This document shows positions 15,799-26,167 of a stretch of DNA of 64,000 nucleotides, one piece after another. Source of the stretch: Acetatifactor sp. (GTDB taxonomy: Bacteria; Bacillota; Clostridia; Lachnospirales; Lachnospiraceae). The DNA lies in the NCBI GenBank assembly GCA_045616525.1, contig JAZLGY010000095.1, forward strand, positions 18,849-82,848. Direction: 5' to 3'. A program made the translations under genes and the position numbers. The notes under the pieces were generated by a model, which was given only the letters and a program-made list of their open reading frames with translations, was not told the DNA's origin and did not search any database. Numbering within the stretch: the first letter of the stretch is position 1; each line of letters opens with the position of its first letter.

Positions 15799-15819
15799 CG
15801 ATTGAAGAAGGTGATTGGT

Positions 15820-17772
15820 TTGAAAAGAAAAATAGCTGTTTTTTCAAATGCATGGAGTGAGAAAAGTTTAAGTGACGCGTTGGAAGGAATTAAAGAGCGT
15901 GCACAAGAAGAAGATTTTGATATTTTTGTCTTTTTGAGTCATGCTGCACCGGGAAATGATGCCAACGAACAACGAGAGGAAAAAAGAATATACCAATTAC
16001 CTGATTTGGAAGATTTTGATGGTGGAATTATTTTTTCTTCAGCCATGAATTTTCATGATTTGGTTGAAGATATTTGGCAAAGAGCTCGTAAGGCAGGGGT
16101 ACCATTAGTAAGTATAGGCGAAAAACTTGAAGGATGTCCACTGGTTGAATTTAATAATAAAGACAGTATGAAACAGCTTGTTGAACATTTAATTACTGTT
16201 CATGGAATAAAGGATATTGAGTTCATTGCCGGTATGAAGGATAGCGTTGATTCAAATATCAGAATTGAAGCAGCCAGAGAAGTTATGCAAAAATATAATT
16301 TAGTTTTGGATGAACCCAATCTTCATTATGGTGATTGGAGTGTTTTTGGTGCTATGAAAACTACGGCGGATATTATAGAAAGCCGAGAGGGAAAACTTCC
16401 AGATGCATTTATATGTGCCAATGACACACTGGCCATGAGTGTTTGTGTAGAATTAGAAAATCATGGATTTCATGTTCCGAACGATACAGTGGTTACTGGT
16501 TATGATCGTATTTATGATGGACAAATATTTGATCCGTCTCTTTGTACTGTAGGTCGTGATGACAAATTATCCGGTAAAATGGCGTTTGATTCATTATTGC
16601 TTGCTATCCAAGAACAAAAAAACGAAGATATAATTATTGACAGTGAATTTATTCCAAATCAAAGTTGTGGTTGTGTAAATTCTAATGCGAATAAACTTCG
16701 TTCTGATGAATGTAAAAGAGCTTTTTATAATAAAGTAGATTCACTTAATTTTGGTTGGAGTAACAGTTGGCTTTCGTCAAGAGTTTTAGATAGTAAGAAT
16801 CCTAAGGATATTCGTAATAATTTAGAGGAACACTTTAAGAATAGTCATATGTTTAAAAATGGTACAGCCTTCATTTTAGAGGATCCAATTGCAAAAATGT
16901 ACTTTGCAGGTAATGTTACCAATGATTTCGAGAATATTAGTTATTCTGAAGAATTAGAAGTTATGGTAGCAGTGGATCATTTTAATGTGATTGATAAAAG
17001 TAATACAATGCCACGTAAGCAAATGATTCCGGGATATAAAAAAATTGAAAATAATAGCAGATTATTTATATTTTTACCTATTCATTTTAAAGATCGTGTT
17101 TTTGGATATGCTGTAATAGAAGATTTCGTAGAAGGAATAGCAAATAGAAAGATTAAAATTTTTGTAGATAGTTTTAATCAGACAATAGACAAATTGAAAC
17201 AAAATATTGCACTTGAACAATTAAATGCTCGATTACAGGAACTTTATACAAAGGATGCATTAACCGGGATGTACAATCGATTTGGATTTGCAACGATTGG
17301 TAATTTAATGTACGAGAATTGCAGAGAGCATGAGAATGAAATGATTCTTATGTTCACAGATATTAACAGAATGAAGCTGATTAATGACTATTATGGTCAT
17401 TTGCAAGGGGATAAAGCAATTAAAACGACTGCAGAAGCCATTCTTGAATCAATTCCTGAAGATTGGATTGCTATTCGTTTTGGTGGTGACGAGTTTCTTA
17501 TTATGGGACAAAGTAATCATGCAGATAATATTGATGCTGTTAAGAATAAGATTGTTAATGAGGTTAAAAATAAAGGAAAAGAAGCGCAATATCCATTTTA
17601 TTTAAGTGTAAGCTGTGGATACTTAAAATTTGTTCCTGATTCAAATAAAACATTGGACAGTTATATAAAACAGGCAGATGAGGCCATGTATGAAATAAAG
17701 GCCTATATGCATTCCTGTGACCAGGAACTAAGAGATTTTGTAGAGAAGTGTAAAGGAAATACTTTAGAATAA
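15820..17772 (+). CDS. diguanylate cyclase with N-terminal LacI/PBP type-I sugar-binding sensor domain (no HTH, no TM)
   Basis: RFGGDEFLIMG active site; N-terminal half has the periplasmic-binding-fold motif FICANDTLAMSV. A TTG start at 15820 is preferred (AAGGTGA RBS 5 nt upstream); the alternative TTG is at 15802. Confidence 0.85.
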   Translation: MKRKIAVFSNAWSEKSLSDALEGIKERAQEEDFDIFVFLSHAAPGNDANEQREEKRIYQLPDLEDFDGGIIFSSAMNFHDLVEDIWQRARKAGVPLVSIGEKLEGCPLVEFNNKDSMKQLVEHLITVHGIKDIEFIAGMKDSVDSNIRIEAAREVMQKYNLVLDEPNLHYGDWSVFGAMKTTADIIESREGKLPDAFICANDTLAMSVCVELENHGFHVPNDTVVTGYDRIYDGQIFDPSLCTVGRDDKLSGKMAFDSLLLAIQEQKNEDIIIDSEFIPNQSCGCVNSNANKLRSDECKRAFYNKVDSLNFGWSNSWLSSRVLDSKNPKDIRNNLEEHFKNSHMFKNGTAFILEDPIAKMYFAGNVTNDFENISYSEELEVMVAVDHFNVIDKSNTMPRKQMIPGYKKIENNSRLFIFLPIHFKDRVFGYAVIEDFVEGIANRKIKIFVDSFNQTIDKLKQNIALEQLNARLQELYTKDALTGMYNRFGFATIGNLMYENCREHENEMILMFTDINRMKLINDYYGHLQGDKAIKTTAEAILESIPEDWIAIRFGGDEFLIMGQSNHADNIDAVKNKIVNEVKNKGKEAQYPFYLSVSCGYLKFVPDSNKTLDSYIKQADEAMYEIKAYMHSCDQELRDFVEKCKGNTLE

Positions 17773-18520: not shown

Positions 18521-19600
18521 CTAACTGTTCTTATGGATTAAGCTATCTGCATAGGTAGCTGCTTTCATACGTCGTTGTTCAGTCATGTCTGCGTAATGCT
18601 TGGCGGTTGTTTGTACATTAGAATGTCCCAATGCATCTGCTGTTAAATAAATATCGCCGGTTGCTAAATATAGATTTGTACCATATGTAGATCGTAATTT
18701 GTGTGGTGATATTTTATTACCAACACCTAATGCAGCATTTGCATATTTCTTTATCATACGTTCCACAGCACTGACAGAAATTCGATTCCCTTTTTGTGAG
18801 AGGAAGAGGGCTCTTTCGGCTTCATCCGGATTGAAATGACTTCTGGCTGTATCAATATATAAATATAAAGCGTCTAAAACACCACTGCTAAGGTAAACAT
18901 TTTGAATTTTATTACCTTTTCGTGTAACTAATATACAGCTGTTAATATCATTTATGTCTTCTAGGTTAATGCCAACAAGCTCGGATACACGGATTCCGGT
19001 ACCTAAAAATAGCGTTAAAATTGCGTTATCTCTACACTTTAAAAAATCATTGTTATTTTTTTGACGATCTATTAAACCGACGCCTTTATCCAAGGAATTA
19101 TACATGCTTTCTTGTTCTTTATCAGCAAGTCTTATAATTGGTTTTTCCTTTATTTTAGGCATATCAACGCCAATGCATGGATTATCCTCAAGGCGATGAT
19201 GTATATTTAAGTAATTATAAAGGCTACGTATAGTTGATAATTTACGCGCCTTGGAGGCAGCTGAATTTGAACGAATTTGACCGTCATCTGTATGATAAGC
19301 TGTTAAAAATGACAAATAATCCGAGATATTTCGATAGGTTAATTTTGATAAAATATCCAGGTTAATATCGATAGGCTTTTTCCCGGAAAAAACGTGAGAA
19401 TCCATGCATAAATAGTTAAAGAAAAGCTGCAAATCACAGGCATATGCATAACAGGTTCTAGGCTGGAATTTTTCAGAGGATAATTTATCATTAATAAAGT
19501 CCGTGCAATAATCAGGTAATGATGCAAGGATTTCTCTTGATTTTTCCAAATTACGAACACGTTGTTCATAAGAATATGTATGTTGCTTAGTATTTGCCAT
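18521..19600 (-). CDS. tyrosine-type site-specific recombinase/integrase
   Basis: 359 aa; catalytic set GIRVSEL (Arg), HKLRSTYGT (His-x-x-Arg), LGHSNVQTTAKHYA (His, Tyr). Confidence 0.9.
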   Translation of the reverse strand: MANTKQHTYSYEQRVRNLEKSREILASLPDYCTDFINDKLSSEKFQPRTCYAYACDLQLFFNYLCMDSHVFSGKKPIDINLDILSKLTYRNISDYLSFLTAYHTDDGQIRSNSAASKARKLSTIRSLYNYLNIHHRLEDNPCIGVDMPKIKEKPIIRLADKEQESMYNSLDKGVGLIDRQKNNNDFLKCRDNAILTLFLGTGIRVSELVGINLEDINDINSCILVTRKGNKIQNVYLSSGVLDALYLYIDTARSHFNPDEAERALFLSQKGNRISVSAVERMIKKYANAALGVGNKISPHKLRSTYGTNLYLATGDIYLTADALGHSNVQTTAKHYADMTEQRRMKAATYADSLIHKNS

Positions 19601-19778
19601 GGATTTTCCTTTCTATAACAGATTCCCTGATTTTGGGGAAGAACTGCTATTCTAATCAAAATTATAGCTAAAATGCATATAAACTATTATTTAACGGCGT
19701 TTTATATCTATCTCTCATTATACAAAAATCGATATATAAAATCAAGAGGTAAAAAACAGATATGCAGAAAATTCTAAA

Positions 19779-19803
19779 TAGCCCCAGCTTAAAGCCGGGG
19801 CTA
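19779..19803 (-). terminator. hairpin terminator downstream of the surface-protein gene
   Basis: TAGCCCC-agcttaaagcc-GGGGCTA with T-rich flanks on both strands. Confidence 0.6.
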
Positions 19804-19828
19804 TTTTATATTATTCATATATTACATA

Positions 19829-21724
19829 TTATTGAAGCATGGATTTCCAAGCAATTCCTAAATCTTCCCATCCGATAGAAACAAGATATTCATATTCCTT
19901 CTTATTAGAAGTATAGAAATATTCTCCTAACTTAGCATTAGGATTCTTAACTCTGTAAGCTGCTTTATCACCATCTGAGTACCACGCGATACCTTCATCG
20001 TCCCATCCATTAGCTACAAGTGCATCGATTTCTGTTTTATTAACTGTATAGTAATGATCACCGGTTTTAGGATTGTATGCTCTGTAAACAGCTGCGCCAT
20101 ACTCAGGTGCATAGAATTCAATACCTTCATCCTTCCATCCGAGATTTACAAGATAATCCTTCTCGAATTCACTTGCTGTATAGAAATGAATACCATTATT
20201 TGGATTGTAAACTCTGTAAATAGCCTTGGTTACAATTTCTTTTACAGGTTCATTTTCTTCAACAGGAGTTTCTTCCGGAGCAGGTGTTTCATCCGGTGTC
20301 TCAGCAGGTGTTTCATCCGGTGTCACATTTGGTGTTTCATCCGGTGTCACATTTGGTGTTTCGTCCGGTGTTTCATCCGGTGTTTCGTCAGGTGTTTCAT
20401 CCTGTATTCTAGGATCTTTTACTACTATATAATCTCTAAGCATTGATGTTGAATATCTGTCTTCAAGATCTTGATATACTTCATATTTTAAGAAGCCCTC
20501 CGCATTTTCACCATTTGTACTGAAGAAACATTCTGCTTTTACATCCGGTTCATAAATATAAAACATATAGAACTTTGTCTTTGAACCTACCCATTCATCT
20601 TTTTTTACAATATCGCCTTCTTTAAATGTAGTAAAATCTGTATATTCATGTAATACTTCAACAGTAATTGTTGCAGACTTATCACTGCCATCCTTTGCTG
20701 TAACAATTATTTGGGCTGTTCCATTTGATACAGCTGTTACTACTCCATCTTCAACTGTTGCAACAGCTGGATTATTTGATAACCAAGATAATGTTTTATC
20801 GGTTGCATCATCTGGGGTAACAGTTACAACTAATGTCTCTGTATCACCTATTTCCATTTTTAAATAAGTATTATTAACGGTTATATTTTCTATAGGTACA
20901 ACTGGGTTACCAATTTTAAATGCCTTAACTGCAGTAGCTTCTCCTACAGTAAGGGATGCATAGTAATATCCATCTGCGGAAGGTGTTCCTTCAACTAACG
21001 TTCCTCCGGTGGTTGTATCATTCGAGTTAACTTTATAGAATTTAACGTCGGATTCAGATATATTTTCATCTGTTGCAGCGGTAAATGCATCTAAGTTATC
21101 AATACCGGAATAGTTCGGAGAGGTTGCGGTGAGGGTAAGGGATACTTTATTATCACTCAGTTCACAATTTCCATCTTCGTTAGCGCATGTTGCAACAATC
21201 GTATTCTTTGCTGTATCAGGAACAGAATAGGTGAATGAATGAGTATGTGATGGAGACAATTCTCGACTAAACACTATATCGCCAAACCAATCTACATATG
21301 CTAAATAATGAACGCTTTTAACCTGATTATTTTCAAAATCAACACTTAAATAGTCACCACCATCATAAGTCCATTTATTCTCACTTTCTATGAAAATAAG
21401 TTCTTGATCTTCTGAAACATGAACCTTGACAACCCAGTCTTCTAATTTTTGACAATCCTCATCCTCACCTCCCATCATTACTATAAAATCTTTAAATGAC
21501 CTATCTTCGCCAAACATCTCACTACCACCCATCAGTTCTTCACTGACAGCATCTACTTTTTGGCACAATGCTATCTCATTTGCTGTTGGTTCGTCAGCTG
21601 GAGTATTAGCTTTAACATCAGTACTAATTCCCATAACCATAGAAAAAACCATAGTTGCTGTAACTACCATTGCAGTCAGTTTATTTTTCAAAAACTTGCC
21701 TTTCATTTTTTTCCTTTTGTTCAT
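19829..21724 (-). CDS. secreted surface protein: signal peptide, Big_2 Ig-like domain, Pro/Thr/Asp/Glu linker, three C-terminal YRxYNPNxGxHFYT...GWxDEGI repeats
   Basis: 631 aa; MNKRKKMKGKF...ANT signal peptide; LSWLSNNPAVATVEDGVVTAVSNGTAQIIVTA (Big_2); DETPDETP... linker; three DUF5648-like repeats; no LPXTG. Confidence 0.85.
   Translation of the reverse strand: MNKRKKMKGKFLKNKLTAMVVTATMVFSMVMGISTDVKANTPADEPTANEIALCQKVDAVSEELMGGSEMFGEDRSFKDFIVMMGGEDEDCQKLEDWVVKVHVSEDQELIFIESENKWTYDGGDYLSVDFENNQVKSVHYLAYVDWFGDIVFSRELSPSHTHSFTYSVPDTAKNTIVATCANEDGNCELSDNKVSLTLTATSPNYSGIDNLDAFTAATDENISESDVKFYKVNSNDTTTGGTLVEGTPSADGYYYASLTVGEATAVKAFKIGNPVVPIENITVNNTYLKMEIGDTETLVVTVTPDDATDKTLSWLSNNPAVATVEDGVVTAVSNGTAQIIVTAKDGSDKSATITVEVLHEYTDFTTFKEGDIVKKDEWVGSKTKFYMFYIYEPDVKAECFFSTNGENAEGFLKYEVYQDLEDRYSTSMLRDYIVVKDPRIQDETPDETPDETPDETPNVTPDETPNVTPDETPAETPDETPAPEETPVEENEPVKEIVTKAIYRVYNPNNGIHFYTASEFEKDYLVNLGWKDEGIEFYAPEYGAAVYRAYNPKTGDHYYTVNKTEIDALVANGWDDEGIAWYSDGDKAAYRVKNPNAKLGEYFYTSNKKEYEYLVSIGWEDLGIAWKSMLQ
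20270..20405 (-). repeat. tandem 12/24-bp repeats encoding the (D/N)(E/V)TP linker
   Basis: Reiterated GGTGTTTCATCC / GGTGTCACATTT units on the plus strand. Confidence 0.85.
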
Positions 21725-21802
21725 AAATTTTTGCCCTCCTTAAAAGTTATTTTTATCTATATAAACTTGTTTTTCACATGGTAAATCGGAAATAATTTAG
21801 TC

Positions 21803-21950
21803 CGCGGTGCCACCCTCGATTCCGCCTTCGGCTTCACCTCGTGTTCGCGCTGTCGCGCTATACATCCAAGCGCAAATATGTCTGCTTGTGAGCAAGCTCC
21901 CAGCAGCCAATTTGGCTTGTCTGTGCACCGCTCATAGTTTCGCGACTATT
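21803..21950 (-). promoter_or_regulatory. GC-rich structured 5' leader element ending in a T-box-like core (AAUCGAGGGUGGCACCGCGG); class unresolved
   Basis: The minus-strand RNA contains the GGGUGGCACCGCG core at 21815-21803. It has several hairpins (AGCCAAAUUGGCU; CUGCU..GAG-CUUG-CUC..AGCAG; GUCGCG...CGCGAC closing helix). It lies about 80 nt upstream of the surface-protein ATG. No canonical Stem I boxes or terminator partner were seen. Confidence 0.35.
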
Positions 21951-22035
21951 GAAATATTCCTTAACGATTGGGGGTTCATTTAGACATATATTAGTTAACC
22001 TATTTACATATCTGGATATAATTTTATATACGCTA

Positions 22036-22065
22036 ATTATACGCATGGACGTAATTCCAAGACAA
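22036..22065 (-). promoter_or_regulatory. candidate sigma-A promoter for the leader and surface-protein gene
   Basis: Minus strand TTGTCT-18 nt-TATAAT. Confidence 0.4.
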
Positions 22066-22103
22066 AAAAGTAACCGCCCCAGTCTGGTAAACTAAGCGGT
22101 TAC
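22064..22103 (-). terminator. rho-independent terminator inside the ribH/surface-protein intergenic region
   Basis: Minus strand GTAACCGC-ttagtttaccagactgg-GCGGTTAC followed by TTTTTTG. Confidence 0.7.
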
Positions 22104-22274
22104 TAAAATCGTAAAATATATCAGGCGAACCGTCATCGGTAGCACCTTTTTGTTATTAATATGATAACACCGCTCTCCAGTTATGTCAAAACAAATCTTC
22201 TATATTCAGTTTTTCCAAATGAAATAGTTTGGATTGTAAATAAATATTATTTGTTAATAATATACAATGACTAT
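22104..22274 (-). ncRNA. candidate short transcript (sRNA or leader) between an orphan promoter and the 22064-22103 terminator
   Basis: A promoter-like TTGTGC-17 nt-TATAAT (22309-22281, minus) is followed about 170 nt later by a strong terminator. The only ORF is a 14-codon MTVRLIYFTILVTA (22136-22092) with an AAGGTG RBS. Confidence 0.25.
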
Positions 22275-22374
22275 GTTGTAATTATACAGTTTTTCGCGAA
22301 AATGCACAAGATATAAATTGAATTATTTTAGTCCACACAACCCTATCATTTTTAATAGTGTGAAGTTAATAATA

Positions 22375-22409
22375 AATAAAAGCTACCAAACCATTTGGTC
22401 TGGTAGCTT
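22375..22409 (-). terminator. ribH terminator
   Basis: AGCTACCAAACC-atttg-GGTCTGGTAGCT hairpin with T-runs on both strands. Confidence 0.8.
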
Positions 22410-22415
22410 TTTATA

Positions 22416-22889
22416 TTACATCTGATCTAATAAATTAACCATTTCAACTGCAGATAATGCACAATCATAACCCTTGTTGCCAGCCTTGCTTCCGGCACGT
22501 GCAATTGCCTGTTCAATGTTTTCTGTTGTTACGATACCAAAAAGTACAGGTACTTTTGAGGAAAGTGAAACCTGAGCGATTCCCTTGGATACTTCATTAC
22601 ATACATAATCGTAATGAGAAGTATCTCCACGAATTACTGCACCAACACAAATAATAGCATCATATTTTCCTGAAAGAGCCATCTTCTGAGCTACAATGGG
22701 GATTTCAAATGCACCGGGTACCCAAGCAGCTGTAATATTCTTCTCATCTACTCCATGACGAACAAGTCCGTCTACGGCACCACCAAGAAGCTTATTAACG
22801 ATGATTTCGTTAAATCTTGAAGCAACAATACCAACCTTCATACCTTTCTTTGCAACTACTTTGCCTTCTAATAAATTGATTTCTTTCAT
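22416..22889 (-). CDS. ribH: 6,7-dimethyl-8-ribityllumazine synthase
   Basis: 157 aa; [25 protein letters not shown] motifs. Confidence 0.95.
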
Positions 22890-22938
22890 GTCTTTTCTCC
22901 TTTTCGTTGTAATGTATTTGAATTATTTTATCTACAAA

Positions 22939-24153
22939 TTATAAATTTAATTCGTTAAAAATATGGCCCATTTTTTCTTTTTTGGTACGCATATATTTAA
23001 TATCAAATTGCTGTGGTTCGATTTCTATAGCTACTCTTTCATTGATTTTTAATCCAAAACCTTCCAAGCCATATACTTTTTCAGGGTTATTGGTTAATAA
23101 ACGAAGGCTCTTTACACCTAAATCAGATAATATTTGAGCGCCTACCCAGTATTCTCTCAAATCGGGTGCAAAACCAAGCTTTACATTGGCTTCTACTGTA
23201 TCATAGCCCTGTTCCTGGAGTTCATAAGCCTTTAATTTATTGATTAAGCCAATTCCGCGACCTTCCTGACGCATATAAAGTAAAATACCCTTGCCTTCTC
23301 TTTCGATTTGTTCCATTGCAGATTGTAACTGTTCGCCACAATCACATCTTTTGGAACCAAAGGTATCACCTGTAAGGCATTCTGAATGAACACGACATAA
23401 AATATTCTCACCGTCCCCAATATCACCCTTTAATAATGCAACATGATGTTCGCCGGTAATATCATTTATATATCCAATCATTCTGAAATCACCATACTTA
23501 GTAGGTAATTTTGCATCAGCCATTTTCTGAACATGTTTTACATGAACATGGATATAATCCTGTAATGCCTTGATGGTAATATATTTTAAATGATATTCTT
23601 TCGCTAGCTTATATATATTCTCAGCCTTCATCATGGTACCGTCTTCTTCCATGATTTCACAGCAAACACCACATTCCTTTAAGCCGGCCAGCTTCATTAA
23701 ATCAACTGTAGCCTCTGTGTGGCCATTACGCACCAATACACCGCCTTCTTTGGCAACTAGAGGAAATACATGTCCCGGATGTCTAAAGTCGCTGGGTTTG
23801 GCATTATCATCACAGCAACTCATCATTGTCATGGAACGTTCAGCGGCTGAAATACCGGTTGTTGTATTAATATGATCGATAGAAACGGTAAATGCAGTTT
23901 GATGATTATCAGTATTATTCTGTACCATTGCCGGAAAACCAAGCTTATTTGCAAGGCTGATACTCATAGGTGTACAAATCAATCCTTTTGCATATTTGGC
24001 CATGAAGTTGATGTTTTCCTGTGTTGCAAATTCACCGGCACAAATCATATCACCTTCATTTTCTCTGTTTTCATCATCAGAGACTAGGATGATTTTACCA
24101 TTTTTTAAATCCTCTAATGCTTCTTCCACTGTATTGTAAGTAAAGTTTTCCAT
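22939..24153 (-). CDS. ribBA: bifunctional 3,4-dihydroxy-2-butanone-4-phosphate synthase / GTP cyclohydrolase II
   Basis: 404 aa; [10 protein letters not shown] (DHBPS) and [11 protein letters not shown]...RCDCG (GCH II zinc site). Confidence 0.95.
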
Positions 24154-24165
24154 GAATTTCTCCTT

Positions 24166-24810
24166 TTAAAAATCTAAGTCTTTTAGCATGTCATAGGTTA
24201 AGGTACTCTTCTCTTCTTTAGGGGCAGGAAACATTAACTTTTGAACATATTTTCCTACGATGTCATTTTCTAAATTTACAAGGGAGCCTTTTCTCTTGTG
24301 CAATAATGTGGTTTCTTTCGCTGTATGTGGAATGATGGAAACCTTGAAGCACTTATGATCAACGTAAGCAACTGTTAGGCTGATTCCATCTATACATATG
24401 GATCCTTTTTCAACAATAAGCTTTAGAATTTCATCAGAAGTATTTATTGTAACCCAAACAGCATTTTCTTCTTCTTTGTATTCTGTAATTTCACCGGTAC
24501 CATCAATATGACCTGATACGATATGACCACCAAATCTTCCATCTGCAGCCATTGCTCTTTCGAGGTTAACTTTGTCACCTTTTTTTGCATTGGATAAAGC
24601 AGAGCGTCTTACTGTTTCGGCCATAATGTCTGCAGTAAATCCGTCCTTTTGTAAACTGGTTACAGTTAGACATATTCCATTAACAGCAATAGAATCTCCT
24701 ATGTGCGTGTTTTCTAAAACTTTTTTGGCTTGAATGGCAATTGCTCCCGAAGTACCTTTTATGGAAAGATTCTTTATTATTCCGGTCTCTTCTACAATTC
24801 CTGTAAACAT
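24166..24810 (-). CDS. ribE: riboflavin synthase alpha subunit
   Basis: 214 aa; MFTGIVEE N-terminus, duplicated GxSLTV barrel motifs. Confidence 0.95.
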   Translation of the reverse strand: MFTGIVEETGIIKNLSIKGTSGAIAIQAKKVLENTHIGDSIAVNGICLTVTSLQKDGFTADIMAETVRRSALSNAKKGDKVNLERAMAADGRFGGHIVSGHIDGTGEITEYKEEENAVWVTINTSDEILKLIVEKGSICIDGISLTVAYVDHKCFKVSIIPHTAKETTLLHKRKGSLVNLENDIVGKYVQKLMFPAPKEEKSTLTYDMLKDLDF

Positions 24811-25907
24811 TATGCCTCCTCCATTCGTTTCACGTAGGTTAATAATACATCCTGATCAATTTGTTTTATTGATTTTAAGGTATATAAAGAAGCATCCTGC
24901 ACTTCTACTATTCCTTGTCCCTCTACCGGACTTTTGGCATCCTGGCCACCGAATATTTTGGGCGCGATAAAGACCTCTACTTGATTAATCAGCTTGTTTC
25001 TGGTAAAGGTATCGTTAATAATTCCACCGCCTTCTACCAAAATACTATCAATGCCCTCAGTGCCTAAATATTCTACTAATTTTTCAATATCTACTTCTCC
25101 ATTTTTATCAGGTAAACATTTAACAGTTAAACCTAACTTAGTTAATTCGTTGGCTTTTTCTTCACAAGAATTGGCGCAAATAATATAGGTTTTATATTCT
25201 TTCGCTGTTTTAACAATCTGACTGTCTAATGGAATACGAAGCTTGCTGTCACAGATGATACGAATAGGACTTTTTAAGCCATCAATTCTGACATTTAACA
25301 TGGGATCATCTTTTAATACGGTGCCTATACCAACTAGTATACCCATGTATTTATGTCTCATTAATTGAACTTCGTGGCGTGCTTTTTCACCTGTTATCCA
25401 TTTGGATAAGCCTGCCTTGGTTGCAATCTTACCATCCATAGTCATGGCATATTTCATTACCATATAAGGTCTCTTGGTTGTAATATAATGAAAGAATACA
25501 GGATTAATCTCATCACACTCTTCTCTCATAAAGTCCTGAATGACCTCTATTCCATGCTCCTGTAAAAGCTTTGCCCCTTTTCCTGAAACCAAAGGATTGG
25601 GATCTCTTGAGCCAATCACAACACGAGCAATCTTATTTTCTATGATTGCTTCTGTACATGGAGGTGTTTTTCCGTAGTGACAACATGGCTCTAATGTAAC
25701 ATAAATGGTTGCACCTTCAGCTGATTCGGTCAGATGCTTAAAGGCATTTCTTTCTGCATGAAGCTCACCACATCTTTCATGATAACCTTCACCAATGATC
25801 CTGCCATCCTTTACAATAACAGCACCAACCATTGGATTCGGATTGGTATATCCCATTGCTTTTTTTGCAAGCTCTATGGCTCGTAACATGTATTGCTTCT
25901 CTGCCAT
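24810..25907 (-). CDS. ribD: bifunctional riboflavin biosynthesis deaminase/reductase
   Basis: 365 aa; HAERNA...LEPCCHYGKTPPC deaminase zinc motif plus a C-terminal reductase domain. Confidence 0.95.
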   Translation of the reverse strand: MAEKQYMLRAIELAKKAMGYTNPNPMVGAVIVKDGRIIGEGYHERCGELHAERNAFKHLTESAEGATIYVTLEPCCHYGKTPPCTEAIIENKIARVVIGSRDPNPLVSGKGAKLLQEHGIEVIQDFMREECDEINPVFFHYITTKRPYMVMKYAMTMDGKIATKAGLSKWITGEKARHEVQLMRHKYMGILVGIGTVLKDDPMLNVRIDGLKSPIRIICDSKLRIPLDSQIVKTAKEYKTYIICANSCEEKANELTKLGLTVKCLPDKNGEVDIEKLVEYLGTEGIDSILVEGGGIINDTFTRNKLINQVEVFIAPKIFGGQDAKSPVEGQGIVEVQDASLYTLKSIKQIDQDVLLTYVKRMEEA

Positions 25908-25924: not shown

Positions 25925-26148
25925 TAAAAAGCCCTGAAGTTAAAACTTCAGGGCTAAACATCAAAAATATGATCATAGAAACATATCAATATGGATATAT
26001 TGATACATTCATTTTGTTTCTTTCATCCAGACTTTCATATCAAAGATATGTACATAAAATGTAACTGTCGGCCTCGGAGTTTCACCGAATCTGCCTTACG
26101 GCTCGCGGGCTATACCGCCGGTAGGGAATTACACCCTGCCCTGAAACA
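25925..26148 (-). promoter_or_regulatory. FMN riboswitch (RFN element) with terminator expression platform
   Basis: Minus-strand aptamer 26148-26015: UUCAGGGCAGGGUGUAAUUCCCUACCGGCGGUAUAGCCCGCGAGCC...GCCGACAGU...AAAGUCUGGAUGAAAGAAACA. Terminator AGCCCTGAAGTT-tt-AACTTCAGGGCT plus TTTTT at 25955-25925. Confidence 0.92.
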
Positions 26149-26167
26149 TATTTAATTTTCATTTAGA

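What the first reader, a model, noticed from the sequence alone, without database searches (positions are those of the whole stretch)
21725..22063. GC-rich structured leader with a T-box core but no terminator partner, upstream of a surface-protein gene
**What is there.** The 5' region of the secreted Big_2/DUF5648-repeat protein gene is about 300 nt long, measured from a TTGTCT-18-TATAAT promoter at 22065-22036. It contains a sharply GC-rich island (about 21803-21950) within AT-rich DNA. On the minus strand the island ends with AAUCGAGGGUGGCACCGCGG. That matches the T-box antiterminator core GGGUGGNACCGCG at every fixed position, and UGGC would pair with a tRNA carrying discriminator G.

**Why it is unusual.**
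1. I cannot find canonical Stem I elements (AGAGA bulge, AGUA box, distal GGUGNRA loop). Instead the island folds into a closing helix GUCGCG/CGCGAC around two hairpins, one with a stable CUUG tetraloop.
2. The sequence 3' of the core is AT-rich, with no complementary strand to form either antiterminator or terminator.
3. The downstream gene is an adhesin-like protein, not an aminoacyl-tRNA synthetase, biosynthetic or transporter gene.

**Interpretations.**
- This may be a truncated, orphaned T-box left by a rearrangement. A tyrosine recombinase gene lies just beyond the surface-protein gene, and the core abuts a 13/15 direct repeat.
- It may be a different or novel structured RNA class that shares this motif. 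Clostridial adhesin genes are often riboswitch-controlled, for example by c-di-GMP, and the 5' part GUCGCGAAACUAUGAGCGG faintly recalls kink-turn-containing aptamers.
Basis: partly seen in the sequence, partly recalled or inferred. Interest (0 to 1): 0.7.

Follow-up and report, generated by a model that had tools for sequence, protein, structure and literature searches.

The report
Divergent Clostridiales-1 RNA, not a T-box
The GC-rich island ahead of the surface-protein gene is a divergent copy of a known, multi-copy gut-Clostridia structured RNA (Clostridiales-1) of unknown function, and its T-box-like motif is just one strand of that RNA's closing helix.

Summary
The island is real. It is a 130-nt, about 59% GC element at 21931-21802 (minus strand) in AT-rich DNA, and it contains an exact GGGUGGCACCGCG. 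It is not a T-box.

- **Rfam:** no T-box or c-di-GMP riboswitch match at E<=10. The only relevant hit is a full-length, sub-threshold match to Clostridiales-1 RNA (RF01699): 27.4 bits against a gathering score of 48.
- **Relatives:** I recovered 23 homologous copies from Lachnospiraceae/Clostridia assemblies, up to 6 per genome. Their RF01699 scores run from 24.7 to 50.2 bits, and one passes the threshold.
- **Independent model:** a covariance model built without the window copy finds it at 94.6 bits (E about 1e-21).
- **Structure:** covariation supports a closing helix GCGGUGC/GCACCGC and a long GCUUGC-capped hairpin. 19 of 34 pairs show compensatory changes, against 6.6±1.6 in shuffles.
- **The motif:** the "T-box core" is the 3' strand of the closing helix. 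It is absent from every relative.
- **Gene context:** only 5 of 24 copies lie just upstream of a same-strand gene. The nearest relative (L207) also precedes a secreted multi-domain protein.

**Verdict:** a subfamily variant of a known orphan RNA; its function is unresolved. Moderate-to-low interest.

The parts
21802..21931 (-). The whole Clostridiales-1-like RNA element (closing helix P1 plus hairpins H1, H2 and H3)
   Evidence: Rfam RF01699 gives a full-length match at 21805-21930, 27.4 bits, E=0.001 in a 1-kb search. Model R1, built from 22 relatives without the window copy or L207, gives 94.6 bits, E=8.8e-22, and this is its only hit in the window. The minimum-free-energy fold has z = -3.8.
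21925..21931 (-). P1 5' strand, GCGGUGC
   Evidence: It pairs with 21804-21810. Compensatory changes are seen in L215 and L216, and G-U pairs in L208 and L218.
21804..21810 (-). P1 3' strand, GCACCGC. It lies inside the 'T-box core' GGGUGGCACCGCG (21803-21815).
   Evidence: The motif is absent from all relatives.
21866..21919 (-). H1: long bulged hairpin capped by the invariant GCUUGC (21892-21897)
   Evidence: 16 of its 21 pairs (helices 3 and 4) show changes on both sides across 24 sequences. GCUUGC is invariant and is the conserved loop in the Rfam consensus.
21851..21867 (-). Invariant junction block GGAUGUAUAGCGCGACA (end of H1, junction, 5' arm and loop of H2)
   Evidence: Identical in all 24 copies except one Y/G position. 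I used it as the search pattern, so its invariance among the retrieved copies is partly by construction. It was first seen conserved between the window and L196, which was found independently.
21847..21858 (-). H2: short hairpin GCGC-GACA-GCGC
   Evidence: Predicted in the MFE fold and in the alignment fold. It is nearly invariant, so there is no covariation for or against it. Its 3' arm is missing in L196.
21817..21841 (-). H3: CGA-GGUGA-AGCC-GAA-GGC-GGAA-UCG, a hairpin with a purine-rich internal loop and a GAA triloop
   Evidence: cmscan aligns it to the third hairpin of RF01699. The same design occurs with different stem sequences in L216 (GCC GGAG AUGC GAA GCAU CGGA GGC) and L221 (CCGAC GA AUGC GAA GCAU UUG GCGG).
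21932..21970 (-). Conserved 5' flank (…CAAUCGUUAAGGAAUAUUUCAAUAGUCGCGAAACUAUGA)
   Evidence: Conserved with L207. The CGCG…CUAy part matches the family's 5' flank UUGCGCGUUUCUAC. It is absent from L201 and L203.
22036..22065 (-). Candidate promoter TTGTCT-18-TATAAT
   Evidence: 10 of 12 consensus matches. This is not above the chance frequency, and the site is not conserved in L207. Unverified.
21725..21801 (-). AT-rich spacer with the Shine-Dalgarno sequence AAGGAGG (21735-21741), leading to the ATG at 21724
   Evidence: Read directly from the sequence. No terminator was found. The UG..AAAAACAAGU stretch is shared with L207.
19829..21724 (-). Downstream gene: 631-aa protein with a signal-peptide-like N-terminus (by eye) and Big_2 and DUF5648 domains
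   Evidence: Pfam. The database holds no full-length orthologue.

Best explanation
**What it is.** The island is a divergent member of the Clostridiales-1 structured-RNA family. It belongs to a subfamily marked by the invariant block GGAUGYAUAGCGCGACA.

**How it folds.** It folds on the minus strand as a four-way junction:
- closing helix P1, GCGGUGC/GCACCGC;
- a long hairpin capped by GCUUGC;
- a short GACA-loop hairpin;
- a hairpin with a purine-rich internal loop and a GAA triloop.

The apparent T-box core is the last junction nucleotides plus the 3' strand of P1. The resemblance is coincidental.

**Shown:** homology to the family, the P1 and H1 pairings, the RNA-sense strand, multiple copies per genome, and no consistent downstream gene.

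**Inferred:**
- The element acts as a self-contained folded RNA module. Its invariant junction and loops are probably recognised by a conserved partner, more likely a protein than a metabolite.
- The element is carried inside other genes' transcripts rather than having a conserved promoter and terminator of its own.
- In this window no terminator separates it from the adhesin-like gene, so it is probably part of that gene's 5' leader. There it could affect mRNA stability or translation.
- It does not sense tRNA.
For: - **Rfam on the window:** RF01699 is the only relevant family hit. The match is full-length, 27.4 bits, E=0.001 over 1 kb and 0.065 over 64 kb.
- **An independent relative:** a six-frame pseudo-protein search found L196/L197, which also scores on RF01699 at 29.1 bits.
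- **More relatives:** a pattern scan of 185,579 species genomes gave 21 true sites in Lachnospiraceae/Clostridia assemblies and 5 chance sites.
- **Link to the known family:** on the 14 loci I scanned, RF01699 scores form a continuum from 24.7 to 50.2 bits. L216 passes the gathering score of 48.
- **Model R1**, trained without the window copy or L207, scores the window copy at 94.6 bits and L207 at 86.1 bits.
- **Covariation:** 95.1% of cells are paired. 19 of 34 pairs show double changes against 6.6±1.6 in shuffles (0 of 500 reach the observed value); slid controls give 2-11.
- **Strand:** G-U cells number 33 and A-C cells 9, so the RNA is on the strand given.
- **T-box motif:** found in 0 of 224 fetched loci.
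- **Context:** only 5 of 24 copies have a same-strand gene within 100 nt downstream. Neighbouring genes are unrelated to one another.
- **Copy number:** up to 6 copies per assembly, and short contigs break inside the element.
Against: - The window copy is 20 bits below Rfam's gathering score. It lacks the canonical UGAG..GAAG/CGGAAUGCGAA internal-loop motif of the second hairpin.
- The relatives were fished with a pattern taken from the window, so the invariance of the 22 pattern positions is partly by construction.
- H2 has no covariation, and its 3' arm is missing in L196.
- There is no transcription data. The predicted promoter is at chance level and is not conserved in L207.
- The window and L207 copies both lie 80-95 nt upstream of secreted multi-domain proteins that share a module. 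That hints at a cis role which the family-wide picture does not predict.
- The partner (protein or ligand) is pure inference.
Confidence: 0.85

Rival explanations
1. It is a truncated or orphaned T-box riboswitch whose Stem I and terminator were lost in a rearrangement.
For: GGGUGGCACCGCG matches the T-box core exactly, against 0.04 matches expected by chance with up to one mismatch allowed. The element lies in a 2.66-kb strain-variable segment next to an integrase gene.
Against: - The Rfam T-box model gives no match at E<=10.
- The motif's pairing partner lies 5' of it and covaries with it as a closing helix.
- No 3' complementary strand, terminator or sequestrator is present.
- The motif is absent from all 23 homologues, including the 92%-identical L207 copy.
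- The downstream gene is not an amino-acid-related gene.
Confidence: 0.01
2. In this subclade (window plus L207) the element has been co-opted as a cis-acting 5'-leader regulator of secreted or adhesin-like protein genes. It would be riboswitch-like or protein-responsive and would control translation or mRNA stability.
For: - In both the window and L207 the RNA sits 80-95 nt upstream of a Shine-Dalgarno sequence and ATG, with no terminator between.
- The two downstream genes encode different multi-domain proteins, each with a signal-peptide-like N-terminus (by eye). They share one module of about 120 aa (33% identity, E=1e-5).
- About 35 nt of 5' flank and a UG..AAAAACAAGU stretch in the spacer are also conserved between them.
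- L216/L224 (RNase II/R-type gene, 39 nt), L214 (MoxR ATPase gene, 80 nt) and L206b (GNAT gene) are likewise placed in leader position.
Against: - Only two members of this subtype are known.
- The one homologue of the window protein's N-terminal region (P0021 in L003, 57% identity) has no such RNA upstream.
- 19 of 24 copies are not in leader position, and the downstream genes have nothing in common.
- No expression platform is visible: there is no terminator, and the fold predicts no pairing with the Shine-Dalgarno sequence.
Confidence: 0.25
3. The family is a dispersed, possibly mobile, intergenic repeat, comparable to MITE, BOX or ERIC elements. Its helices would be maintained for propagation or as a side effect, and the copy in the window would have no dedicated function.
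For: - Up to 6 copies per assembly, and contigs end inside the element.
- P1 amounts to 7-9-bp terminal inverted repeats.
- Direct repeats of 12-13 nt flank the copies in L219 (12/12), L200 (12/13) and L201 (11/12), at consistent offsets.
- Partial tandem duplicates occur in L196/L221, L202 and L218.
- The 3' hairpins are swappable modules.
- There is no conserved promoter or terminator. Other tandem arrays lie adjacent in several genomes.
Against: - Structure is conserved by compensatory change across distinct genera, with a strand-specific G-U bias, which points to selection on a single-stranded form.
- The flanking repeats are significant in only 3-4 of 24 copies; the permutation p for the mean is 0.057.
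- No transposase or integrase is associated with the copies outside the window.
- No empty site was found: 8 of 8 contigs carrying the identical neighbouring gene also carry the element.
Confidence: 0.3
4. It is a free-standing trans-acting small RNA, which is how Rfam types the family, and it merely happens to lie upstream of the adhesin-like gene.
For: Rfam and Weinberg et al. classify the family as 'Gene; sRNA' and as not cis-regulatory. Most copies are divergent from or convergent with their neighbours.
Against: - No intrinsic terminator follows the RNA in the window or in L207, and I saw none in the flanks of most other copies.
- In L214, L215 and L216 the U-run of the upstream gene's terminator abuts the element, leaving no room for a promoter.
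Confidence: 0.3

Closest known systems
Clostridiales-1 RNA motif (Rfam RF01699; Weinberg et al. 2010, Genome Biol 11:R31)
   Same: - Four-stem architecture: a 7-bp closing helix followed by AG, then three hairpins.
- A long first hairpin capped by GCUUGC.
- A third hairpin with a G(N)GA / G(N)A purine-rich internal loop and a GNA triloop.
- Found in gut Clostridiales/Lachnospiraceae, with many copies and no consistent gene association.
- One homologue (L216/L224) passes the Rfam gathering score.
   Different: - The window copy scores 27.4 bits against a gathering score of 48.
- The canonical second hairpin (outer stem plus the UGAGcAuGaAG…CGGAaUgCGAA internal loop) is replaced by a 12-nt GCGC-GACA-GCGC hairpin.
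- That hairpin is preceded by the invariant block GGAUGYAUAGCGCGACA, which I did not find in the 2010 alignment (gap characters could hide it).
- In most relatives the canonical UGAGCAUGAAG…CGGAAUGCGAA motif is present but sits where the window copy has H3. The 3' hairpins therefore behave as interchangeable modules.
T-box riboswitch (RF00230)
   Same: A 13-nt string identical to the T-box core consensus GGGUGGNACCGCG, located in a 5' leader in a Firmicute.
   Different: It has no Stem I, specifier loop, antiterminator partner or terminator. The string is the 3' strand of a covarying closing helix, and it is not conserved in homologues. The downstream gene is unrelated to amino-acid metabolism.
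Structured intergenic repeats such as pneumococcal BOX and enterobacterial ERIC elements (comparison from general knowledge, not tested)
   Same: About 130 nt, multi-copy, intergenic, modular, carried within neighbours' transcripts, and folding into stable stem-loops.
   Different: No sequence relationship is known. This element is a multi-helix junction with strongly conserved unpaired nucleotides and strand-specific covariation, which is more typical of a functional RNA.

Membership tests
T-box riboswitch | Stem I with K-turn, specifier loop and distal tRNA-elbow platform | tested here: not met
   The RF00230 model gives no match at E<=10 in 21500-22500 on either strand. The sequence 5' of the motif is taken up by the covariation-supported P1, H1, H2 and H3.
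T-box riboswitch | T-box sequence forming the antiterminator bulge with a 3' partner strand, alternating with a terminator or a Shine-Dalgarno sequestrator | tested here: not met
   The motif string is present, but it pairs with the 5' strand GCGGUGC. No 3' complement and no terminator were found.
T-box riboswitch | Core motif conserved among homologues | tested here: not met
   0 matches in 224 loci, including 23 homologous copies. L207 reads GGGUAGUGCACCGCG.
T-box riboswitch | Controls an aminoacyl-tRNA synthetase, amino-acid biosynthesis or transport gene | tested here: not met
   The downstream gene encodes a Big_2/DUF5648 protein.
Clostridiales-1 RNA (RF01699) | Score at or above the Rfam gathering threshold (48 bits) | tested here: not met
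   The window copy scores 27.4 bits. Homologues score 24.7-50.2 bits, and L216/L224 (50.2) passes.
Clostridiales-1 RNA (RF01699) | Four-stem structure: a closing helix enclosing three hairpins | tested here: met
   MFE fold, RNAalifold on 24 sequences, covariation counts, and a full-length alignment to the model (positions 1-166).
Clostridiales-1 RNA (RF01699) | Long first hairpin capped by the conserved GCUUGC | tested here: met
   Invariant in all 24 copies and aligned to the model's GCUUGC. It was part of the search pattern for 21 of the copies.
Clostridiales-1 RNA (RF01699) | Second hairpin with the UGAGcAuGaAG / CGGAaUgCGAA internal loop | tested here: not met
   Deleted in the window copy (cmscan alignment). 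Most relatives have it, in the position where the window copy has H3.
Clostridiales-1 RNA (RF01699) | Third hairpin with a purine-rich internal loop and a GNA triloop | tested here: met
   The window copy reads CGA GGUGA AGCC GAA GGC GGAA UCG and aligns to model positions 127-158. The stems differ in L216 and L221 while the design is kept.
Clostridiales-1 RNA (RF01699) | Clostridiales/gut distribution, many copies, not consistently in 5' UTRs | tested here: met
   The homologues come from Lachnospiraceae/Clostridia assemblies, some labelled horse faeces or sheep rumen. There are up to 6 copies per genome, and 5 of 24 are in leader position.
c-di-GMP-I / c-di-GMP-II riboswitch | Match to the aptamer covariance model | tested here: not met
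   Neither family appears at E<=10 in 21500-22500 or at E<=1 in the whole window.
MITE-like mobile repeat | Target-site duplication and presence/absence polymorphism (an empty site) | tested here: inconclusive
   Direct repeats of 12-13 nt flank 3 of 24 copies. No empty site was found for the L201 copy. In the window the polymorphic unit is a 2.66-kb segment, not the RNA alone.

The most novel reading that the evidence does not exclude
Clostridiales-1-type elements may be mobile, self-folding RNA modules. On this reading they spread through Lachnospiraceae intergenic regions with about 12-nt target duplications and interchangeable 3' hairpins. They would become embedded in host transcripts, and in one subclade (window and L207) they would have been domesticated as a 5'-leader control element for surface or adhesin-like protein genes, read by a still-unknown protein or ligand through the invariant GGAUGYAUAGCGCGACA junction.
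Probability: 0.12. Interest if true: 0.6.

Novelty: new variant of a known kind. Interest (0 to 1): 0.3.

Why it matters
- It removes a false lead. There is no orphan T-box upstream of an adhesin gene here.
- It shows that the current Rfam model for Clostridiales-1 misses a well-defined Lachnospiraceae subfamily: only 1 of the 15 copies scanned on 14 loci reaches the threshold.
- The subfamily supplies an invariant junction block, modular 3' hairpins and a set of genomic contexts. These could help in working out what this common gut-bacterial RNA does, which has been unknown since 2010.
- Two related copies lie in the leaders of secreted-protein genes. This gives a concrete, testable case for a cis effect.

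Tried and rejected
- **Gene-based search for orthologous leaders.** The 631-aa protein has no exact record and no full-length orthologue. The only relative of its N-terminal region (P0021 in L003) has no RNA upstream.
- **BLASTN of the island against plasmids and phages.** Only chance GC-rich fragments.
- **Three viral-contig pattern scans.** Nothing, or chance hits in purine-rich coding sequence.
- **Metagenome scan for H3-type copies.** A single contig, identical to L216.
- **Flanking direct repeats as target-site duplications.** Significant in 3-4 copies only.
- **Empty-site test through the GNAT gene next to the L201 copy.** All syntenic contigs carry the element, and more distant homologues are not syntenic.
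The 3' side is invariant, and the 5' CGCG is missing in 5 of 24 copies (L198, L201, L203, L208, L213). It has no covariation support.
- **Alternative-sigma promoter motifs in the conserved 5' flank.** I compared by eye with sigma-54, sigma-H, ECF and sporulation sigma consensus sequences recalled from memory. The spacing did not fit any of them.
- **Search of the 2010 supplementary alignment for the subfamily's block.** Not found, although gap characters could hide it.

Full report
**1. What is in the sequence**

Read on the minus strand, the interval between the rib operon and the 631-aa Big_2/DUF5648 gene contains the following, in order:
- ribH, which ends at 22416. An FMN riboswitch lies at 26011-26152.
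- The rib terminator at 22411-22378.
- A strong promoter-like site at 22189-22161 (TTGACA-17-TGnTATCAT).
- A 14-codon ORF and a terminator hairpin with a U-run (22103-22064).
- About 100 nt of AT-rich sequence.
- A sharp GC-rich island: GC is 0.53-0.60 over about 21780-21930, against 0.22-0.30 in the flanks.
- A 77-nt AT-rich spacer with AAGGAGG, then the ATG at 21724.

GGGTGGCACCGCG occurs once in the window, at 21815-21803. With up to one mismatch allowed, 0.04 matches are expected by chance. The promoter-like site is no better than chance frequency (7 sites found, 5.0±2.0 expected).

**2. Known-family search**

At gathering thresholds the only Rfam match in the window is the FMN riboswitch. 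I then ran permissive filters on 21500-22500.
- No T-box, c-di-GMP-I, c-di-GMP-II or raiA match appears at E<=10.
- The only relevant hit is a full-length alignment of 21930-21805 (minus strand) to Clostridiales-1 RNA, RF01699. It scores 27.4 bits against a gathering score of 48, with E=0.001 and E=0.065 when the whole window is searched.
- The alignment uses CGGUGC…GCACCG as the closing helix. The GCUUGC-capped hairpin is stem 2.
- The minimum-free-energy fold gives the same topology (-58.8 kcal/mol, z = -3.8).

This already places the "T-box core" as the 3' strand of a closing helix.

**3. Finding relatives**

The downstream protein was of no help. It has no exact record and no full-length orthologue. 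The one relative of its N-terminal region (P0021, 57% identity) has no such RNA upstream.

Contigs that encode the identical ribH protein (L001, L002; about 90% DNA identity) run from ribH straight to the same integrase gene. They lack window 22402-19747 altogether. The RNA and the surface-protein gene therefore lie in a 2.66-kb strain-variable segment.

To find the RNA itself I translated the island in six frames and searched the protein database for spurious ORFs. This gave one hit, P0121, and through it L196 and L197. These carry a clear homologue that also scores on RF01699, at 29.1 bits.

I turned the blocks conserved between the window and L196 into a pattern (GCTTGC N{14,34} GGATGNATAGCGCGAC). 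Scanning one genome per GTDB species gave 26 sites:
- 21 true sites, all with the same 46-nt spacing, in Lachnospiraceae/Clostridia assemblies, with up to 6 per assembly;
- 5 chance sites in unrelated GC-rich genomes.

A metagenome scan for copies with the window's type of 3' end returned only a contig identical to L216.

**4. Is it Clostridiales-1?**

On 14 of the new loci, RF01699 scores run continuously from 24.7 to 50.2 bits. L216 (50.2) passes the gathering score, L214 reaches 46.5 and L202 reaches 42. L216 has the same architecture as the window copy: P1, H1, the short GACA hairpin, and H3.

A covariance model built from 22 relatives, with the window copy and L207 left out, finds the window copy at 21931-21802. 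The score is 94.6 bits (E=8.8e-22), and it is the only hit in 64 kb. The same model scores L207 at 86.1 bits. Part of these scores comes from the 22 pattern positions, which are shared by construction. Those positions cannot account for more than about 44 bits.

[quoted passage not shown] They list 206 representatives and rate it not cis-regulatory and not a riboswitch. They also note that the structure looks less conserved once more distant homologues are added. I conclude that the island is a divergent member of this family, in a subfamily the Rfam model largely misses.

**5. Structure and strand**

In the 24-sequence alignment the consensus fold has 34 pairs.
- 95.1% of cells are paired. 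19 pairs show changes on both sides, against 6.6±1.6 in column shuffles (0 of 500 reach the observed value). Versions with the 3' partner slid by 1-3 columns give 2-11.
- P1 covaries: GCGAUG/CAUCGC in L215 and GCGAAGUG/CACUUCGC in L216.
- Of H1's 21 pairs (helices 3 and 4), 16 show double changes.
- The short hairpin GCGC-GACA-GCGC is nearly invariant, so it is untested. Its 3' arm is absent in L196.
- G-U cells outnumber A-C cells 33 to 9, so the functional single strand is the one given.
- H3 of the window copy (CGA GGUGA AGCC GAA GGC GGAA UCG) has counterparts with different stem sequences in L216 and L221.
- Most relatives instead carry CAUGAGCAUGAAGCGnAGCGGAAUGCGAAUGG at that position. 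This holds the canonical UGAG…GAAG/CGGAAUGCGAA motif of RF01699. The 3' hairpins thus behave as interchangeable modules.
CGCGAC lies in the invariant block, and the upstream CGCG is missing in five copies.

**6. T-box test**

Every defining feature fails.
- No Stem I or specifier region.
- The motif's partner lies 5' of it, not 3'.
- No terminator or sequestrator.
- No amino-acid-related gene downstream.
- The motif is absent from all 224 fetched loci, which include the 23 homologous copies.
- The 92%-identical L207 copy reads GGGUAGUGCACCGCG. That sequence makes a perfect 9-bp P1.

**7. Context and likely mode of action**

- Only 5 of 24 copies have a same-strand gene within 100 nt downstream: the window, L207, L216/L224, L214 and L206b. 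Most copies are divergent from the upstream gene or convergent with the downstream one.
- Neighbouring genes have nothing in common: RNase II/R-type, MoxR ATPase, GNAT, XRE regulator, response regulator, nitroreductase, beta-CASP nuclease and Mn catalase. No transposase is among them.
- I saw no conserved promoter or terminator. In L214, L215 and L216 the U-run of the upstream gene's terminator abuts the conserved 5' flank.
- Several features resemble dispersed intergenic repeats:
  - multiple copies per genome;
  - contigs that break inside the element;
  - partial tandem duplicates in L196/L221, L202 and L218;
  - 12-13-nt flanking direct repeats in L219, L200 and L201;
  - adjacent 52-74-nt tandem arrays in several assemblies.
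- The compensatory, strand-specific conservation across genera argues for a function at the single-strand level.

My best reading is a self-contained folded RNA module that rides in host transcripts and is recognised through its invariant junction and loops. In the window it most likely forms part of the adhesin-like gene's leader, because no terminator intervenes.

The window and L207 copies share the leader arrangement. They also share about 35 nt of 5' flank and a spacer motif, and each sits in front of a different secreted protein; the two proteins share one module. A cis role in this subclade therefore remains possible; I put it at about 25%. The mobility test was inconclusive: every syntenic contig found for the L201 copy carries the element.

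**8. Verdict**

- The T-box interpretation is refuted.
- The "other structured RNA" interpretation is right in kind, but the class is known.
- Novelty: a subfamily variant of Clostridiales-1, whose function remains unknown.
- Interest: moderate to low, 0.3.

Noticed in passing
window 26011-26152 (-): An FMN riboswitch (RF00050, 103.5 bits) lies ahead of four ORFs at 25907..22416 that look like a ribD-ribE-ribBA-ribH operon. Only ribH was confirmed (DMRL synthase, Pfam).
   Followed up: partly
window 19747-22402: This 2.66-kb segment holds the small ORF unit, the RNA, the 631-aa gene and its terminator. It is absent from two contigs (L001, L002) that encode the identical ribH protein and the same integrase at about 90% DNA identity. 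It is a strain-variable insertion or deletion directly upstream of the integrase gene (18521-19600, minus strand). I found no clear repeats at its boundaries.
   Followed up: partly
window 22064-22189 (-): A separate mini transcription unit. It has a near-consensus extended -10 promoter (TTGACA-17-TGnTATCAT) and a hairpin that holds the Shine-Dalgarno sequence and AUG. A 14-codon hydrophobic ORF follows (MTVRLIYFTILVTA, 22136-22092), then a strong hairpin and U-run terminator (22103-22064). It could be a small RNA, a leader peptide or a degenerate type-I-toxin-like gene.
   Followed up: no
L213 1703-2038; L208 6492-6753; L218 6688-6914; L220 3598-3705; L200 3041-3314; L205 4997-5196: In two unrelated assemblies the RNA copies are followed directly by tandem arrays of 72-74-nt units. 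Each unit contains a conserved inverted repeat (CGGGGTATAG…CTATACCCCG, or TTTTACCTATA…TATAGGTAAAA). Contigs often end in these arrays. Arrays with 52-nt (L202) and 66-nt (L203) periods lie near other copies. They do not look like CRISPR arrays, because the sequence between the inverted repeats is also repeated.
   Followed up: partly
L219 7184-7344, L200 2826-2986, L201 5829-5989: Direct repeats of 12-13 nt (AAATAGGAATTT 12/12; AAATTGGAAGCTG 12/13; TCTACAACTTGA 11/12) lie 22-26 nt upstream of P1 and again 0-6 nt after it. They could be target-site duplications or remnants of tandem duplication.
   Followed up: partly
L196 5384-5440 and 5690-5785; L221 equivalent: The RNA is followed by a partial second copy: an H3-like hairpin and a second GGCACCGCG. 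About 250 nt further on there is a 30-codon hydrophobic ORF (MTVLTVISIVVTVTSIVVTLVSMHRDNDNK) with its own terminator, which resembles a type I toxin. A gene caller had merged the whole GC-rich stretch into a spurious 175-aa ORF (P0121).
   Followed up: no
L227, L228, L229, L231 (contig ends): Short Logan contigs that carry the GNAT gene next to the L201 copy end inside the RNA element. This is what assembly breaks at a multi-copy repeat would produce.
   Followed up: no
window 15802-17772 (+): A protein with a periplasmic-binding domain and a GGDEF diguanylate cyclase domain is encoded about 2 kb beyond the integrase gene. No c-di-GMP riboswitch model matches anywhere in the window at E<=1.
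   Followed up: partly
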